Below, piece after piece: positions 8,320 through 59,771 of a stretch of DNA of 64,000 nt. Each line of letters opens with the position of its first letter. Position 1 is the stretch's first letter. The stretch lies in the NCBI RefSeq assembly GCF_024223415.1, contig NZ_CP100500.1; one strand, 5' to 3'. The stretch is from Escherichia coli (GTDB lineage: Bacteria > Pseudomonadota > Gammaproteobacteria > Enterobacterales > Enterobacteriaceae). The position numbers and the translations under genes were made by a program. The notes beneath the pieces are model-generated. The model ran no database searches. It saw only the letters and a list, made by a program, of their open reading frames with translations, and was not told the DNA's origin.

Positions 8320-8555
8320 ATATAGCGCACGATTTGTAGCAGGATGCGGCGTTGACCCCGCATCCGGCAATCAACGTCTGATGCGACGCTAGCGCGTCTT
8401 ATCAGACCTACAACAGCTGCCACATGTCGGCTGAGGTGCTCACGCCGCATCCGGCAATCAACGTCTGATGCGACGCTTGCGCGTCTTATCAGACCTACAA
8501 CCGTTGCCACATGTAGGCTGGATAAGGCGTTCACGCCGCATCCGGCAATACAAGT
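8320..8555. repeat. BIME: two tandem ~87-bp REP-containing units plus flanking palindromic units
   Basis: catccggcaatcaacgtctgatgcgacgct[a/t]gcgcgtcttatcagacctacaac... occurs twice, offset about 87 bp (8361 and 8448). Confidence 0.85.
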
Positions 8556-29689: not shown

Positions 29690-29835
<146 letters not shown>

Positions 29836-43502: not shown

Positions 43503-43635
43503 AAAAATTGCCTGATGCGCTACGCTTATCAGGCCTACACGTATCCTGCAATATATTGAATTCGCAGGTTTTTGTAGGCCGGATAAGGCGTTCACGCCGC
43601 ATCCGGCATGACAAAGCGCACATTGATATCTGTCT
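43503..43635. repeat. BIME / REP pair
   Basis: gcctgatgcgctacgcttatcaggcctac ... gtaggccggataaggcgttcacgccgcatccggc. Confidence 0.8.
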
Positions 43636-44720: not shown

Positions 44721-45764
44721 TTAACGCATTGTTTCATCAAGTATATTGGCAACTTTTTGCATGACTTCCCCGGCATTATCCACGCCTTCAGTTTTTTGCT
44801 GTTCTACCCACTGCGTTTGCTCTTGCTGATAACCAATCGCTTTCTGCCAGGCGTCCAGCTCTGATTTTTTCAAATAGCGAACCTGTGCACCTTCCTGCTC
44901 AAGCGTTTTTACCATGCTGATCAGGTTGTTATCTAATGCCTTGCCCAGCGCTTTCTCGGTTGTAATGGCCGCTCGTTGAATAGCCTCACGATCTCTGTTA
45001 TCAAGGTTTTCCCACGTTTGTTTATTCATTACCAACAGATAAACATGACCAAGCCAGAGCGAAGGGGAGAGCAACACATTCGGCGCAGCACGTTCAGCAT
45101 GGATGTCATATCCGCTATCAAGATTGACCATTAAGCCATCGAGTTGTCCGTCGCGGAGTGCTGTCGTAATTTGCTCATTCCACGGTAAGGTTACGGTTTT
45201 TGCCCCCGTATGAGTTAAATAAGCCCGGTGCCAGAAACTGGCTGTTCGCCAGGTGGTTCCCTGAAGTGCAGTCAATTTATCAATGGGCCTGGTAGAGAAA
45301 AAGCCTACCGGGTAGCCAAGGAAAAACTGTAAATTCACGATATTGTTACGCTCAAGTTCAGCGTTAAACTCGGGAATTTCCGCATATACGCGACGAAAGA
45401 ATTCTACCTGACTGGCTCCATGATCCGGGCCAATAGCAAAGCTCTTGAAGATTTGATGAAGCGGTAATTGTTTCGCTGTGTATTCCGGTACCACTATACC
45501 CATATCAGCTTTGCTACCATCACTTATTGTCGTCAGAGCGTCATAGCTGATGGCGGTTTCACCGTTCCAGTGTGGTTCGATTTTCAAACGCCCCTGCGAC
45601 TCTTTTTCAATTTCTGCAAAAAATATCTCTTTAATTATTTGTGTACGCATTCCCCCGTAGGGTTCATGGTCTGTATAACGAAGAATTTTTTCAGCGGCAA
45701 CGTTGTGGGAAGATATCAGAAGTAATCCTGATACCAGAGAAAGTAAAAAGTGTTTGAATGTCAT
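44721..45764 (-). CDS. DctP-family (TRAP-type) periplasmic solute-binding protein, orphan (no DctQ/DctM adjacent)
   Basis: Signal peptide MTFKHFLLSLVSGLLLISSHNVAA, then a fold-length ORF with DctP-like stretches (...ALRDGQLDGLMVN..., ...TWENLDNRDREAI...); internal Met chosen. Confidence 0.6.
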   Translation of the reverse strand: MTFKHFLLSLVSGLLLISSHNVAAEKILRYTDHEPYGGMRTQIIKEIFFAEIEKESQGRLKIEPHWNGETAISYDALTTISDGSKADMGIVVPEYTAKQLPLHQIFKSFAIGPDHGASQVEFFRRVYAEIPEFNAELERNNIVNLQFFLGYPVGFFSTRPIDKLTALQGTTWRTASFWHRAYLTHTGAKTVTLPWNEQITTALRDGQLDGLMVNLDSGYDIHAERAAPNVLLSPSLWLGHVYLLVMNKQTWENLDNRDREAIQRAAITTEKALGKALDNNLISMVKTLEQEGAQVRYLKKSELDAWQKAIGYQQEQTQWVEQQKTEGVDNAGEVMQKVANILDETMR

Positions 45765-45818
45765 CTCAGTTCCATCTGTAATTTTATTGGTCGTCATTAA
45801 TATCAAAAACCGTGAACT

Positions 45819-46748
45819 TTAACAACTAAAATCGAACTTCATATTTTTAAAGTCCAGCCACGCATTGCCAGTACCAAAATTATACCCGCCGAAGTATTCT
45901 TCAAATTCAATATAAAAAGGTGACATTCCATCTGGTATAGATTGAAATGGAACCATTGAACCACCGAGATGATCGGGTTGATGTGCACTATGCCACTGGT
46001 GAGTTTCACATTTACTCTTTCCCTCTGCATCTTTAGAAAAATAACGAATGGACTGATATTCCGTATTATTTCTTTCTGTGGGGCTAATTCCCGCATTAGG
46101 ATCAAAAGCGCGCGGCTTACATGAAATCGCCAGATTGAAAGCCAGCGACTGCTCAGGAATGGTGCCCATTTTACGGTATACAAAATTGCTTTCAGGCGTA
46201 TCTTTTGGTCTGACGCTTGCCTGAAAATAACTAAACGCACTGCCGGTGGTCATCCATTCTGGTGTATCTTGCTGGTTGCGATAGTGATTAGGTATAAGTT
46301 CAGGCGGTTCACAAAATGGGCCGTTGAACTCTTGCTGGGTGAGTAAAATCACCGCATAAGAACAACCTAATATATCTTCCATCCGAAATAGCCGTGGATG
46401 TCGTTGCTTTTCTGCCAGCCAGAAAACATAAAGGTCTGGATCTTCGGGGGGGGTGCAGGACTCGAAACTCTCAAACACATCCAATATTTCTTCTGTACAT
46501 GGTGTTCTGCCATCGTTGTGCTCGGGCGCAACAGCAAAGAAAGATAACGCGACAATCTCTGGCCCATAAATCCGATAATCTTCTGGCAACAACAGGGTAA
46601 ATCCATGATTCAATGGGAAACCATTATTTGGATCCAGCGGCCACTGTTCGGGCGTTATGCCTGGCGGTAGGCCAAAGCACCAACCTTGTTGGCGCGGTAT
46701 ATTTTCGCGAATAGGATGGGGCAAGAGGGTAAGATCATAAGCATGCAT
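45819..46748 (-). CDS. hypothetical cytoplasmic protein (309 aa), family not recognised
   Basis: No signal peptide or TM segment; AT-rich coding sequence; His/Cys-containing motifs (CETHQWHSAHQPDHLGG, FYIEFEEYFGGYNFGTGNAWLDF). Confidence 0.5.
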   Translation of the reverse strand: MHAYDLTLLPHPIRENIPRQQGWCFGLPPGITPEQWPLDPNNGFPLNHGFTLLLPEDYRIYGPEIVALSFFAVAPEHNDGRTPCTEEILDVFESFESCTPPEDPDLYVFWLAEKQRHPRLFRMEDILGCSYAVILLTQQEFNGPFCEPPELIPNHYRNQQDTPEWMTTGSAFSYFQASVRPKDTPESNFVYRKMGTIPEQSLAFNLAISCKPRAFDPNAGISPTERNNTEYQSIRYFSKDAEGKSKCETHQWHSAHQPDHLGGSMVPFQSIPDGMSPFYIEFEEYFGGYNFGTGNAWLDFKNMKFDFSC

Positions 46749-57343: not shown

Positions 57344-58576
57344 ATGGCAAAGGTATCGCTGGAGAAAGACAAGATTAAGTTTCTGCTGGTAGAAGGCGTG
57401 CACCAAAAGGCGCTGGAAAGCCTTCGTGCAGCTGGTTACACCAACATCGAATTTCACAAAGGCGCGCTGGATGATGAACAATTAAAAGAATCCATCCGCG
57501 ATGCCCACTTCATCGGCCTGCGATCCCGTACCCATCTGACTGAAGACGTGATCAACGCCGCAGAAAAGCTGGTCGCTATTGGCTGTTTCTGTATAGGAAC
57601 AAACCAGGTTGATCTGGATGCGGCGGCAAAGCGCGGGATCCCGGTATTTAACGCACCGTTCTCAAATACGCGCTCTGTTGCGGAGCTGGTGATTGGCGAA
57701 CTGCTGCTGCTATTGCGCGGCGTGCCGGAAGCCAATGCTAAAGCGCACCGTGGCGTGTGGAACAAACTGGCGGCGGGTTCTTTTGAAGCGCGCGGCAAAA
57801 AGCTGGGTATCATCGGCTACGGTCATATTGGTACGCAATTGGGCATTCTGGCTGAATCGCTGGGAATGTATGTTTACTTTTATGATATTGAAAATAAACT
57901 GCCGCTGGGCAACGCCACTCAGGTACAGCATCTTTCTGACCTGCTGAATATGAGCGATGTGGTGAGTCTGCATGTACCAGAGAATCCGTCCACCAAAAAT
58001 ATGATGGGCGCGAAAGAAATTTCACTAATGAAGCCCGGCTCGCTGCTGATTAATGCTTCGCGCGGTACTGTGGTGGATATTCCGGCGCTGTGTGATGCGC
58101 TGGCGAGCAAACATCTGGCGGGGGCGGCAATCGACGTATTCCCGACGGAACCGGCGACCAATAGCGATCCATTTACCTCTCCGCTGTGTGAATTCGACAA
58201 CGTCCTTCTGACGCCACACATTGGCGGTTCGACTCAGGAAGCGCAGGAGAATATTGGCCTGGAAGTTGCGGGTAAATTGATCAAGTATTCTGACAATGGC
58301 TCAACGCTCTCTGCGGTGAACTTCCCGGAAGTCTCGCTGCCACTGCACGGTGGGCGTCGTCTGATGCACATCCACGAAAACCGTCCGGGCGTGCTAACTG
58401 CGCTGAACAAAATCTTCGCCGAGCAGGGCGTCAACATCGCCGCGCAATATCTACAAACTTCCGCCCAGATGGGTTATGTGGTTATTGATATTGAAGCCGA
58501 CGAAGACGTTGCCGAAAAAGCGCTGCAGGCAATGAAAGCTATTCCGGGTACCATTCGCGCCCGTCTGCTGTACTAA
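57344..58576 (+). CDS. serA: D-3-phosphoglycerate dehydrogenase
   Basis: 410-aa ORF MAKVSLEKDKIKFLLVEGVHQKALESLRAAGYTNIEFHKGALDDEQLKESIRD... Confidence 0.96.
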   Translation: MAKVSLEKDKIKFLLVEGVHQKALESLRAAGYTNIEFHKGALDDEQLKESIRDAHFIGLRSRTHLTEDVINAAEKLVAIGCFCIGTNQVDLDAAAKRGIPVFNAPFSNTRSVAELVIGELLLLLRGVPEANAKAHRGVWNKLAAGSFEARGKKLGIIGYGHIGTQLGILAESLGMYVYFYDIENKLPLGNATQVQHLSDLLNMSDVVSLHVPENPSTKNMMGAKEISLMKPGSLLINASRGTVVDIPALCDALASKHLAGAAIDVFPTEPATNSDPFTSPLCEFDNVLLTPHIGGSTQEAQENIGLEVAGKLIKYSDNGSTLSAVNFPEVSLPLHGGRRLMHIHENRPGVLTALNKIFAEQGVNIAAQYLQTSAQMGYVVIDIEADEDVAEKALQAMKAIPGTIRARLLY

Positions 58577-58597
58577 TTCCCCTTCTCTGAAAATCAA

Positions 58598-58628
58598 CGG
58601 GCAGGTCACTGACTTGCCCGTTTTTTTA
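58598..58628 (+). terminator. serA rho-independent terminator
   Basis: cgggcaggtcactgacttgcccg followed by ttttttt. Confidence 0.75.
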
Positions 58629-58749
58629 TCCCTTCTCCACACCGTTGCCGCGTTGCGCATTCTACTTTGCGAGTCTGCTCCAGAAAATAAATCAAAGTCA
58701 GATCAATGCGTTGTGTTTATTTAATGGGGATTTACGATGGCGGGACAGC

Positions 58750-58905
58750 ACAGGGCTGTAACGCTAAAGCCCTCACCGAAGCGAGGGCTTGAAGGAGAAG
58801 GGTTATGATGCGACTTGTCATCATACTGATTGTACTGTTACTCATAAGTTTCCCAGCTTATTAACAGTCAGTCTCAGGGGAGGAGTCATCCTCCCTTACC
58901 CTTAC
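58750..58905 (-). ncRNA. sibC: SibC antisense sRNA (type I antitoxin) overlapping ibsC; ends approximate
   Basis: Inferred from the ibsC position and the known Sib/Ibs architecture; hairpin aagccctcaccgaagcgagggctt at 58757-58780 could serve as the minus-strand terminator. Confidence 0.4.
58805..58864 (+). CDS. ibsC: type I toxin peptide IbsC (19 aa, hydrophobic)
   Basis: atgatgcgacttgtcatcatactgattgtactgttactcataagtttcccagcttattaa gives MMRLVIILIVLLLISFPAY; sits in the serA/ygfA intergenic region as in K-12. Confidence 0.7.
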   Translation: MMRLVIILIVLLLISFPAY

Positions 58906-58964
58906 TCACTAAATTAGGTTAAAGAATCAACGATGTCAATCAGGGCGATGCAGGTGTGTCGCCC

Positions 58965-59513
58965 TTACCACTCCCAGACTTTCGACGGTGTAATCACCGC
59001 AGGCAGTGGGATATCCCACTCTTCAGTGGGGAGTTTTTCCACCAACTGACAATCATGCGCATAACCCACCGGTTGCATTTTATAGTGCTGCCAGTTTTGT
59101 AAGGTCCGATCATAAAAACCACCGCCCATTCCCAGGCGCTGACCGTACTCATCAAAGGCGACCAGCGGTGTGATCAACACGTCTAATCGGGAAAGGGGTA
59201 GCACGTCACGCACATCCAATTTTGGCTCATGGATCTTCAACCTGTTCATCACCAGTTCGCTTTGCGGATGGTAATTCAGGAACAGCAAATTACCGGCACT
59301 AAAGGGATGCAAAACTGGAAGATATACGCGCTTACCGGCGCGCCAGAGTTGTTCTATGAGTGGCTGGGTGTCGAGTTCGCCATCAAAAGAGAGGAATACA
59401 GCGACCGTATGTGCCATCACCACCGGGGGATAAGTCATCATCCGGGTAGCGGCTTGTTGACCCATTTCCTGCTGTTGTTCCGGCGTTAACGTACGACGAC
59501 GTTGCCGAATCAT
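58965..59513 (-). CDS. ygfA: 5-formyltetrahydrofolate cyclo-ligase
   Basis: MIRQRRRTLTPEQQQEMGQQAATRMMTYPPVVMAHTVAVFLSFDGELDTQPLIEQLW...; the 182-aa Met was chosen and upstream Mets are possible. Confidence 0.88.
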   Translation of the reverse strand: MIRQRRRTLTPEQQQEMGQQAATRMMTYPPVVMAHTVAVFLSFDGELDTQPLIEQLWRAGKRVYLPVLHPFSAGNLLFLNYHPQSELVMNRLKIHEPKLDVRDVLPLSRLDVLITPLVAFDEYGQRLGMGGGFYDRTLQNWQHYKMQPVGYAHDCQLVEKLPTEEWDIPLPAVITPSKVWEW

Positions 59514-59585
59514 TTTGCGGATTTCTTGTCGGGATAATGTCAGTGGGAGTTCTGGTAGTTGCGTCATGGCTGGTGCCAGATAAGA

Positions 59586-59771
59586 AGGGAATCTCCGAGA
59601 TGCCGCCGCAGGCTGTAACCCTTGAACCCTTGGTTCAAGGTGAATGTGTCGTCGCAGTTTTAAGGCTTCTCGGACGGACCGAGCATGCTCACCAACCGCG
59701 GAGCGCCACATTCTTGTGGTATGAAATATCGGCTCAGGGGACTGGCCCGCTTGCGAACATCTCAGAGAAAT
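59586..59771 (-). ncRNA. ssrS: 6S RNA (ends within a few nt)
   Basis: Minus-strand sequence AUUUCUCUGAGAUGUUCGCAAGCGGGCCAGUCCCCUGAGCCGAUAUUUCAUACCACAAGAAUGUGGCGCUCCGCGGUUGGUGAGCAUGCUCGG... recognised as E. coli 6S RNA, upstream of ygfA. Confidence 0.9.

What the first reader, a model, noticed from the sequence alone, without database searches (positions are those of the whole stretch)
58750..58905. Intact ibsC/sibC type I toxin-antitoxin pair in the serA/ygfA spacer
A 19-codon hydrophobic ORF (MMRLVIILIVLLLISFPAY) lies on the plus strand, with hairpins on both sides consistent with an overlapping antisense Sib RNA. This is a known system but is easily missed because the ORF is below usual calling thresholds. 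The penultimate residues read FPAY, which may differ by one residue from the K-12 peptide as I recall it.
Basis: partly seen in the sequence, partly recalled or inferred. Interest (0 to 1): 0.35.

Follow-up and report, generated by a model that had tools for sequence, protein, structure and literature searches.

The report
Ordinary ibsC/sibC toxin-antitoxin locus
This is the well-known E. coli ibsC/sibC pair (a 19-residue membrane toxin gene covered by an antisense RNA antitoxin), intact and in its usual place, carrying the commonest E. coli allele rather than the K-12 one.

Summary
A 19-codon ORF (58805-58864, +) encodes MMRLVIILIVLLLISFPAY. It lies inside a full-length Sib RNA gene on the minus strand (58903 to 58763), which scores 136.5 bits against Rfam RF00113 (E 2e-29). 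The setting is the K-12 rpiA-serA-[ibsC/sibC]-fau(ygfA)-ssrS-zapA arrangement. RefSeq annotates the identical peptide as IbsC in the nearest genomes.

The two flanking hairpins are the SibC terminator and the SibC 5' stem-loop P2. Promoters, Shine-Dalgarno sequence, start, stop and predicted fold are all intact.

The suspected difference from K-12 is real. Residue 17 is Pro (CCA) instead of Ser (AGC), with all three bases changed. CCA is the commonest haplotype, found in 2789 of 5426 complete E. coli genomes against 2165 for the K-12 form. Other Ibs copies also have Pro here.

The triplet corresponds to SibC nt 49-51 in the apical loop of target-recognition domain 1. This is the triplet Han et al. 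2010 mutated to retarget SibC to ibsD. This allele is one base from the SibD form, so K-12 specificity rules may not transfer exactly.

This is a known system and of low interest.

The parts
58805..58864 (+). ibsC coding sequence: 19 codons plus TAA, encoding MMRLVIILIVLLLISFPAY.
   Evidence: Translation. It is 57/60 nt identical to K-12 ibsC b4665. The identical protein WP_071525914.1 is annotated as IbsC in strains SCU-316 and KV7.
58792..58797 (+). ibsC Shine-Dalgarno sequence AAGGAG, 7 nt before the ATG. It lies inside the TRD2 target.
   Evidence: Read directly from the sequence and identical to K-12. G50, G51 and G53 of the ibsC mRNA in Han 2010's numbering (PMC2943612) fall on window G58794, G58795 and G58797.
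58745..58903 (+). ibsC mRNA of 159 nt, as defined for K-12 by primer extension and transferred here by alignment.
   Evidence: PMC2943612 reports a 159-nt transcript with an 18-nt 5' overhang beyond the SibC 3' end. The numbering check on G50/G51/G53 fits. The fold has z = -4.9 and the same architecture as K-12. The 3' end is inferred.
58711..58738 (+). Putative ibsC promoter: TTGTGT, 16-nt spacer, TACGAT, ending 6 nt before the +1 at 58745.
   Evidence: Inferred from position relative to the K-12 transcription start. The sequence is identical to K-12 over this stretch. The consensus promoter scan did not pick it up.
58763..58903 (-). SibC antitoxin RNA, 141 nt. The 5' A is at 58903 and the 3' end at 58763. 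It covers the whole ibsC ORF and its translation initiation region.
   Evidence: Mapped from K-12 sibC b4446 through alignment A1. Rfam RF00113 scores 136.5 bits. The MFE is -55.3 kcal/mol with z = -5.3, and the dot-bracket structure is identical to that of K-12 SibC.
58911..58939 (-). sibC promoter: -35 TTGACA (58939-58934), 17-nt spacer, -10 TAATTT (58916-58911), with +1 A at 58903.
   Evidence: This is the first 30 positions of the Rfam model. TTGACR-17-TAnnnT is conserved in all five K-12 sib genes. There is one spacer difference from K-12, at 58920. The consensus scan missed it because the -10 matches only 3 of 6 positions.
58767..58790 (-). SibC terminator stem-loop (nt 114-137, called P7 in Han 2010).
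   Evidence: A 10-bp stem with a 4-nt loop in the MFE fold. Four of its pairs change on both sides across paralogues while staying paired.
58878..58895 (-). SibC 5' stem-loop P2 (nt 9-26). The loop differs from K-12 at 58886-58887.
58836..58858 (-). TRD1 (SibC nt 46-68, P5 stem-loop) and its target in the ibsC ORF. The variable triplet 58853-58855 is ibsC codon 17 (CCA) and SibC U49-G50-G51.
   Evidence: TRD1 limits and the G49CU51 to UGC retargeting experiment come from PMC2943612. The triplet lies in the 8-nt apical loop, nt 48-55.
58789..58805 (-). TRD2 (SibC nt 99-115, the J1/7 single strand) and its target over the ibsC Shine-Dalgarno and start region.
   Evidence: Limits from PMC2943612. 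It is identical to K-12 and has 9 differences from the D and E copies.
58764..58764 (.). SNP private to this strain (C; every other genome examined has G). It is SibC nt 140, after the terminator stem, and ibsC mRNA nt +20.
   Evidence: A 34-mer centred on it has no match in 5426 complete E. coli genomes. It is one of 7 differences from strain KV7 in 20 kb.

Best explanation
This is the chromosomal ibsC/sibC type I toxin-antitoxin locus of E. coli, in single copy and apparently functional.

The plus strand carries a short mRNA (about 58745-58903) encoding IbsC, a 19-residue hydrophobic inner-membrane peptide. When over-produced, IbsC depolarises the membrane and stops growth.

The minus strand carries the 141-nt SibC RNA (58903 to 58763). 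It has its own TTGACA-17-TAATTT promoter and a +1 A. It is perfectly complementary to the whole ibsC ORF and ribosome-binding site.

SibC recognises the ibsC mRNA through two independent domains. TRD1 is the apical loop of stem P5 and pairs inside the ORF around codon 17. TRD2 is the single-stranded J1/7 segment and pairs over the Shine-Dalgarno and start region. Pairing then spreads, translation is blocked and the mRNA is degraded, so the toxin is normally not made.

This strain carries the Pro17 (CCA / SibC U49G50G51) haplotype. That is the commonest E. coli form and probably the older state. K-12's Ser17 (AGC / G49C50U51) is a less common variant. Because antitoxin and target are two strands of one DNA, the change keeps cognate pairing perfect.

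Basis of each step:
- Shown here: sequence, synteny, intactness, predicted fold and allele frequencies.
- Taken from K-12 literature: toxicity, the TRD mechanism and transcript ends.
- Inferred: that both strands are expressed and behave the same way in this strain.
For: Identity and context:
- Rfam RF00113 matches full-length at 136.5 bits, E 2e-29.
- Gene order is the same as K-12 (rpiA, serA, ibsC/sibC, fau, ssrS, zapA, ygfB, pepP) and the spacer has the same 388-bp length.
- RefSeq annotates ibsC at this position in the nearest genomes, with the identical protein WP_071525914.1.

Intactness:
- The ORF, the AAGGAG Shine-Dalgarno sequence, both promoter regions and the terminator are unchanged from K-12, or changed only in loops.
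- SibC MFE structures of the window and K-12 alleles are identical.
- All transcribed differences from K-12, other than the private SNP in an unpaired stretch, fall in hairpin loops or keep a pair. These are +1 A-U versus G-U, the P1 loop, the TRD1 loop and the P2 loop.
- In 13 Sib copies there are 33 consensus pairs, 7 with compensatory changes. All ORFs stay open, and the B-type deletion is exactly 3 nt.

Allele status:
- The CCA haplotype occurs in 2789 of 5426 genomes, K-12 AGC in 2165 and GGA in 1843.
- Pro17 also occurs in IbsB and IbsE, in Escherichia sp. E1V33 and in Citrobacter sp. NCU1.

Mechanism from the literature:
- PMC2943612 defines the TRDs and cognate-only repression.
- PMC8309996 reviews depolarisation and loss of viability on IbsC over-production.
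- PMC12956327 shows that NAD capping of SibC requires a +1 A, which this locus retains.
- PMC4447067 reports sigma-S RNA polymerase bound at sibC.
Against: There are no expression data for this strain.

The consensus promoter scan found no sigma-70-like site on either strand of the spacer. The same sequences drive transcription in K-12, so this reflects the scan's strictness.

The predicted ibsC-side loop is smaller in this allele. It is the 4-nt loop UCCC, against the 6-nt loop UUCAGC in K-12. It also lacks the UUCA (YUNR) motif that Han et al. suggested helps first contact, so kinetics could differ.

The toxicity of the Pro17 peptide has not been reported in any paper I could read. C-terminal residues are said to matter for IbsC toxicity.
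Confidence: 0.93

Rival explanations
1. The locus is functional, but this TRD1 allele weakens the orthogonality described for K-12. SibC with U49G50G51 partly represses ibsD, because its TRD1 is one base from the SibD-type TRD1. This reading is compatible with the best explanation and refines it.
For: Han et al. showed that changing G49CU51 to UGC is enough for SibC to repress ibsD. The window has UGG, one base away.

In TRD1, window-C against ibsD has 2 DNA differences, and one of them becomes a G-U pair in the SibC x ibsD direction. K-12-C against ibsD has 4.

The 23-mer duplex energy for SibC(window) x ibsD is -33.5 kcal/mol. It is -27.7 for K-12 SibC and -37.1 for the retargeted SibC1d.

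The closest genome, KV7, has an ibsD ORF identical to K-12's, so no compensating change is seen there.
Against: The remaining mismatch (G-G) sits in the centre of the kissing loop, where single mismatches usually matter most in antisense systems.

In the reciprocal direction, SibD x ibsC(window) has two true mismatches (-26.8 kcal/mol).

TRD2 remains fully C-specific.

Duplex energies of isolated 23-mers ignore loop geometry.

The strain's own sibD is outside the window.
Confidence: 0.15
2. The S17P change attenuates or abolishes IbsC toxicity, so the locus is an RNA gene with a harmless ORF.
For: Proline is a helix breaker. The review of Mok et al. 2010 says residues 6-19, including the C-terminus, are needed for toxicity.
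Against: Pro at this position is the family norm. It is found in IbsB (SFPAY), IbsE (SFPTY), further copies in KV7 and O157:H7, Escherichia sp. E1V33 and Citrobacter. It is also the commonest E. coli haplotype.

The ORF and Shine-Dalgarno sequence are strictly conserved.
Confidence: 0.07
3. The ORF is a chance reading frame and the element is only a repeat or non-coding RNA.
For: Short ORFs are abundant by chance. There are 81 of at least 20 aa in 4.5 kb.
Against: The frame is open in all 13 aligned copies, including those whose nucleotide sequences have diverged. An indel in the B type is exactly one codon. The peptide pattern MM(K/R)..II...LL.IS(F/L/W).AY is kept, and a Shine-Dalgarno sequence sits at the right distance.

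The K-12 peptide is experimentally toxic.
Confidence: 0.02

Closest known systems
E. coli K-12 MG1655 ibsC (b4665) / sibC (b4446)
   Same: Same spacer (serA-fau, 388 bp) and same orientation relative to the neighbours. The Sib RNA is 141 nt and the ORF 19 codons. Promoters are the same apart from one spacer base at 58920. TRD2, the Shine-Dalgarno sequence and the terminator stem are identical, and the predicted SibC fold is the same.
   Different: There are 13 base differences in 388 bp.
- Codon 17 is CCA (Pro) against AGC (Ser), which is SibC nt 49-51 UGG against GCU in the TRD1 loop.
- The P2 loop differs at nt 17-18.
- The ibsC +1 is A against G, and the 5' hairpin loop also differs.
- One base differs in the sibC promoter spacer.
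- One SNP, at 58764, is private to this strain.
- The predicted ibsC target loop is 4 nt instead of 6 and lacks UUCA.
E. coli K-12 ibsD/sibD (and Han et al.'s SibC1d mutant)
   Same: Same family and fold. The TRD1 region differs from the window's at only 2 DNA positions. The window triplet UGG is one base from SibD/SibC1d UGC.
   Different: It sits at a different locus (yqiK-hldE). TRD2 has 9 differences, including a 3-nt indel. The peptide is MMKLVIILIVLLLVSFAAY.
Tandem C-type pairs in the serA-fau spacer of other E. coli (for example O157:H7 PV15-279 and SCPM-O-B-8794)
   Same: Same spacer and same repeat unit. The fau-proximal copy carries CCA at codon 17, as the window does.
   Different: Those genomes have two copies in a 781-bp spacer. 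Their TRD1 loops differ at four consecutive bases (TTC GGA against TTG CCA in O157:H7). The window has one copy.
Other chromosomal type I toxin-antitoxin pairs with cis-antisense RNAs (ldr/rdl, hok/sok, symE/symR)
   Same: A small toxic protein whose mRNA is repressed by an antisense RNA from the same locus (PMC2943612 introduction).
   Different: In ibs/sib the antisense RNA spans the entire ORF and translation initiation region, and the toxin is only 18-19 residues.

Membership tests
Sib RNA (Rfam RF00113, SIB_RNA) | The covariance model of sequence plus structure matches above the curated gathering score. | tested here: met
   136.5 bits against a gathering score of 56, E 2e-29, model positions 1-147 of 147. 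It is the only such match in the 64-kb window.
Sib RNA (Rfam RF00113, SIB_RNA) | Conserved fold: P1 closing stem, P2, P5 and P6 stem-loops, single-stranded J1/7, and a terminator hairpin. | tested here: met
   The MFE fold reproduces the elements Han 2010 locates by position: P1 (1-6 with 101-106), the P5 loop (48-55), J1/7 (107-113) and the terminator (114-137). It is identical to the K-12 fold. In 13 copies there are 33 consensus pairs, 7 compensatory.
Sib RNA (Rfam RF00113, SIB_RNA) | Own promoter giving a roughly 140-nt transcript antisense to the ibs gene. | tested here: inconclusive
   TTGACA-17-TAATTT with a +1 A is present and conserved among the paralogues. The consensus scan does not call it. 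No transcript data exist for this strain.
Ibs toxin family (type I toxin) | An 18-19 codon hydrophobic ORF on the strand opposite the Sib RNA and wholly inside it, preceded by a Shine-Dalgarno sequence. | tested here: met
   The ORF at 58805-58864 lies within SibC at 58763-58903. AAGGAG sits 7 nt upstream.
Ibs toxin family (type I toxin) | Sequence pattern shared with IbsA-E: MM(K/R), a hydrophobic core, and a C-terminal S(F/L/W)xAY or SFPTY. | tested here: met
   The window peptide is 18/19 identical to K-12 IbsC. Its C-terminal ISFPAY is identical to that of IbsB.
Ibs toxin family (type I toxin) | Match to a curated protein family model (Pfam or NCBIfam). | not testable with these tools
   search_protein_families accepts proteins of 20 residues or more, and the peptide has 19. 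As a substitute, NCBI's pipeline names the identical protein WP_071525914.1 'type I toxin-antitoxin system toxin IbsC'.
ibsC/sibC orthologue specifically (rather than an A, B, D or E copy) | Position between serA and fau(ygfA), C-type TRD2, and the MMRLV N-terminus. | tested here: met
   Synteny is shown. TRD2 is identical to K-12 SibC and has 8-11 differences from the other copies. Arg3 is present.
Type I toxin-antitoxin system (functional definition) | The peptide is toxic when made, and the antisense RNA prevents its synthesis. | not testable with these tools
   This has been shown only for the K-12 allele (PMC2943612, PMC8309996).

The most novel reading that the evidence does not exclude
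C-type Sib/Ibs loci of E. coli form a natural allelic series at the TRD1 kissing-loop triplet that Han et al. changed by mutagenesis. The series is CCA, AGC and GGA, with TTG-CCA in some tandem pairs. The window's majority allele (SibC UGG) is one base from the SibD-type loop. In most E. coli, then, SibC may partly cross-repress ibsD, and the strict cognate-only rule derived from K-12 may be a property of the K-12 allele. The loop would be a hotspot of diversifying change that keeps tandem copies orthogonal.
Probability: 0.15. Interest if true: 0.35.

Novelty: already known. Interest (0 to 1): 0.1.

Why it matters
As a finding it matters little. The system was described in 2008-2010 and current RefSeq annotation already names ibsC at this spot.

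K-12 is the odd one out, not this strain.

One point has some value beyond that. Natural variation between E. coli strains at this locus concentrates in the RNA loops that make first contact. This includes the three bases shown experimentally to set Sib target specificity. Strain collections therefore already contain a ready-made set of specificity variants for studying how duplicated antisense toxin-antitoxin pairs stay insulated from each other.

Tried and rejected
1. Consensus promoter and terminator scan of the spacer. It found only the serA terminator and no promoter. The sibC -10 (TAATTT) and the SibC terminator's short U tract fall below its thresholds. This is uninformative, not negative evidence.

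2. Reading Fozo et al. 2008 (PMC2597788), Fozo, Hemm and Storz 2008 (PMC2593563) and Mok et al. 2010 (PMC3009890, and by DOI). None is held. Their content is cited only through Han 2010 and a 2021 review.

3. Full-text search for the Pro17 peptide string. No paper contains it. Only the K-12 string appears, in one paper.

4. Genome-contig scan with an ibsC-specific 27-mer. It returned only 4 loci, too strict for a real survey of other species. It did give Escherichia sp. E1V33 and Citrobacter sp. NCU1 with CCA at codon 17. The direction of change is therefore suggested, not proven.

5. Loop inversion by template switching as the cause of the three-base change. Rejected, because UGG/CCA and GCU/AGC are not reverse complements of each other, and neither are the P2 loop variants (sequences).

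6. Gene conversion from ibsD. CCA-GCT-TAT-TAA is one base from ibsD's GCA-GCT-TAT-TAA. However, the flanking diagnostic sites (CTCATAAG, CAGTC) stay C-type, so any tract would be 14 nt or less. This can be neither shown nor excluded.

7. Whether the private SNP at 58764 signals anything unusual. It does not. It is one of 7 SNPs in 20 kb against the nearest genome.

8. A weak Rfam match to archaeal snoRNA sR32 inside fau (20.5 bits against a gathering score of 40). Treated as chance.

Full report
**The observation**

The plus strand at 58805-58864 reads ATG ATG CGA CTT ... TTC CCA GCT TAT TAA and translates to MMRLVIILIVLLLISFPAY*. My first translation at 58806 was one base off.

A 19-codon frame is not evidence in itself. 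The 4.5 kb around it contain 81 ORFs of at least 20 aa. The evidence lies in what surrounds and overlaps it.

On the minus strand, Rfam's SIB_RNA model (RF00113) matches full-length at 58939-58789. It scores 136.5 bits against a gathering score of 56, with E 2e-29. It is the only such match in the 64-kb window.

The neighbours are rpiA, serA (57344-58576, +), fau/ygfA (from 58965, -), 6S RNA (59588-59771, -), zapA, ygfB and pepP. This is the K-12 order around ibsC/sibC.

**Mapping onto K-12**

The serA-fau spacer (58577-58964) is 388 bp, the same length as in K-12 MG1655, and aligns without gaps with 13 differences.

Transferring the K-12 annotation puts SibC at 58903 (5') to 58763 (3') on the minus strand, 141 nt.

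Han et al. 2010 (PMC2943612) report a 159-nt ibsC mRNA with an 18-nt 5' overhang beyond the SibC 3' end. That places the ibsC +1 at 58745 and its end at 58903. Their G50, G51 and G53 then fall on window G58794, G58795 and G58797, so the numbering holds.

The sibC promoter reads TTGACA (58939-58934), a 17-nt spacer, TAATTT (58916-58911), then +1 A. The same TTGACR-17-TAnnnT layout is present upstream of all five K-12 sib genes. The simple consensus scan missed both promoters.

**The hairpins**

Folding the 141-nt RNA gives -55.3 kcal/mol with z = -5.3. The structure has:
- P1: nt 1-6 paired with 101-106.
- P2: nt 9-26.
- P5: nt 36-70, with an 8-nt apical loop at 48-55.
- P6: nt 79-100.
- J1/7: nt 107-113, single-stranded.
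- Terminator hairpin: nt 114-137.

These are the elements and positions that Han et al. describe. The K-12 sequence gives the identical dot-bracket string.

An alignment of 13 Sib copies (the window, K-12 A to E, six copies from strain KV7 and from O157:H7) has 33 consensus pairs, 7 with compensatory changes. All ibs frames stay open, and the B-type deletion is exactly one codon.

**The residue difference**

K-12 IbsC ends ...SFSAY and the window peptide ends ...SFPAY. Codon 17 is AGC in K-12 and CCA here, with all three bases different.

I counted haplotypes with 34-nt queries centred on the codon. Megablast needs an exact 28-mer, so only exact carriers are hit. Among 5426 complete E. coli genomes:

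| Codon 17 haplotype | Genomes |
|---|---|
| CCA (window) | 2789 |
| AGC (K-12) | 2165 |
| GGA (Gly) | 1843 |

GGA is the serA-proximal copy in both tandem C-type pairs I examined. O157:H7 is one example, with a 781-bp spacer, and SCPM-O-B-8794 is the other. About 1886 genomes have two places matching the spacer.

Pro at this position also occurs in K-12 IbsB (CCC) and IbsE (CCG), in Escherichia sp. E1V33 (CCA) and in Citrobacter sp. NCU1 (CCA).

So the window carries the common and probably older state, and K-12 is the variant.

**What the triplet is at the RNA level**

On the SibC strand the triplet is nt 49-51. It reads UGG here and GCU in K-12, and it lies in the apical loop of P5.

Han et al. 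define TRD1 as nt 46-68 and TRD2 as nt 99-115. Either domain alone suffices for repression. Changing G49CU51 to UGC, the SibD sequence, lets SibC repress ibsD. The window allele is one base from that.

Comparisons over the TRD1 23-mer:
- Window-C differs from ibsD at 2 DNA positions, one of which becomes a G-U pair in the SibC x ibsD direction. K-12-C differs at 4.
- Crude duplex energies with ibsD are -33.5 kcal/mol for SibC(window), -27.7 for SibC(K-12) and -37.1 for the retargeted mutant. Cognate pairs give -37 to -42.
- TRD2 is identical to K-12 and remains far from D and E, with 9 differences.

The nearest genome, KV7, differs from the window at 7 positions in 20 kb. Its ibsD ORF is identical to K-12's.

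Weakened discrimination against ibsD is therefore conceivable. It rests on one central loop mismatch and on energies that ignore loop geometry. I give it about 15%.

**Other differences from K-12**

Within the transcribed region the remaining changes are:
- ibsC +1, A for G. This keeps the first pair of the 5' hairpin as A-U instead of G-U.
- Two bases in that hairpin's loop.
- Two bases in the P2 loop of SibC.
- A SNP at 58764 (SibC nt 140, after the terminator stem).

The 58764 SNP has no match in any of the 5426 genomes. It is simply one of the 7 strain-level SNPs.

Every difference that is not private lies in a loop or preserves pairing. This is the pattern expected for a structured RNA under constraint.

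On the mRNA side, the predicted target hairpin has a 4-nt loop (UCCC) instead of K-12's 6-nt UUCAGC. It loses the UUCA motif that Han et al. proposed as a YUNR contact point. The SibC-side loop keeps a YUNR in both alleles, CUGG here and CUGA in K-12.

**How it most likely works**

From K-12 work, Ibs peptides of 18-19 residues are lethal when over-expressed. Constitutive Sib RNA represses them, in a cognate-specific way except for ibsA. Repression results in degradation of the ibsC mRNA, and RNase III cleaves the SibC-ibsC duplex in vitro.

IbsC over-production depolarises the membrane within minutes and induces psp genes (PMC8309996).

A 2025 preprint reports that Salmonella IbsA binds the a and b subunits of the ATP synthase Fo sector. 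This has not been shown for IbsC.

SibC is NAD-capped in stationary phase, and capping needs the +1 A (PMC12956327). This locus retains that A at 58903.

Sigma-S RNA polymerase binds at sibC (PMC4447067).

All sequence determinants named in those studies are present here. That they operate in this strain is inference.

**Verdict**

This is a correct identification of a known, already-annotated system, in single copy and intact. The flagged residue difference is the commonest E. coli allele.

Copy-number variation of Ibs genes between strains is in the literature. Seven Ibs genes are reported in O157:H7 Sakai (PMC2887945).

The concentration of natural variation in the TRD1 loop triplet is a small point I could not find stated in the papers available to me. 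It does not change the classification.

Noticed in passing
Locus L013 868-927 and 1261-1320 (O157:H7 PV15-279); locus L009 (E. coli SCPM-O-B-8794): About a third of complete E. coli genomes (roughly 1886 with two matching places) carry two tandem C-type ibs/sib copies between serA and fau, in a 781-bp spacer. In O157:H7 the two copies are near-identical. They differ at four consecutive bases in the TRD1 loop (TTC GGA against TTG CCA) and at one base in TRD2. This looks like divergence that keeps the copies insulated from each other.
   Followed up: partly
Locus L007 18994-19510 (strain KV7, yqiK-hldE spacer): Relative to K-12, the TRD2/Shine-Dalgarno-proximal segments of the D-like and E copies look exchanged. 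KV7 'D' has K-12 E's TTGTATAAGG, and KV7 'E' has TTATAGAAGG, close to K-12 D's TTACAGAAGG. The ORF and TRD1 parts are unchanged. This suggests recombination between tandem copies that reshuffles the two recognition domains.
   Followed up: no
Locus L008 14855-15570 (strain KV7, mdtA-yegL spacer): KV7 has three ibs copies here where K-12 has two, six in total. The ibsA-like copy begins ATGAGG (MRKH...) instead of ATGATG. One B-like copy ends ...ISWPAY.
   Followed up: no
window 58764: A single base (C) found in none of 5426 complete E. coli genomes. It lies after the SibC terminator stem (nt 140) and is +20 of the ibsC mRNA. It is one of 7 SNPs in 20 kb against the nearest genome, KV7, so it is ordinary strain variation.
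   Followed up: yes
window 58943-58964 and 59588-59771: 6S RNA (ssrS; Rfam 139.8 bits) and fau lie on the same strand as sibC, directly upstream of it. Between the fau stop (58965-58967) and the sibC -35 box there is only a GGGCGA/TCGCCC hairpin with no T run after it. Read-through from ssrS-fau into sibC therefore seems possible. It might relate to the two SibC transcripts mentioned in PMC4447067.
   Followed up: no
window 58965-59711: The fau reading frame is open for 248 codons from an upstream ATG. It is annotated as 200 codons in KV7 and SCU-316 and as 182 codons in K-12, so the start site is annotated inconsistently.
   Followed up: no
window 8425-8495; 29746-29788; 43531-43573: Three Rfam matches above gathering score: naRNA4 (63 bits) and two to ES036 (53.5 and 42.5 bits). 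I recall these as REP-type repeat elements but did not check.
   Followed up: no
window about 44721-46748: By the KV7 annotation, a TRAP-transporter substrate-binding protein gene and a hypothetical gene lie between mscS and argO. From memory these two genes are adjacent in K-12, so this may be a strain-variable insertion. I did not check it.
   Followed up: no
Locus L011 (Enterobacteriaceae MAG UBA3516): An ibs-like ORF (MMRLVIILVMLLVVSYPAY...) lacks the stop codon at the usual position and runs on (...YEDT...). It may be a decayed or extended copy.
   Followed up: no
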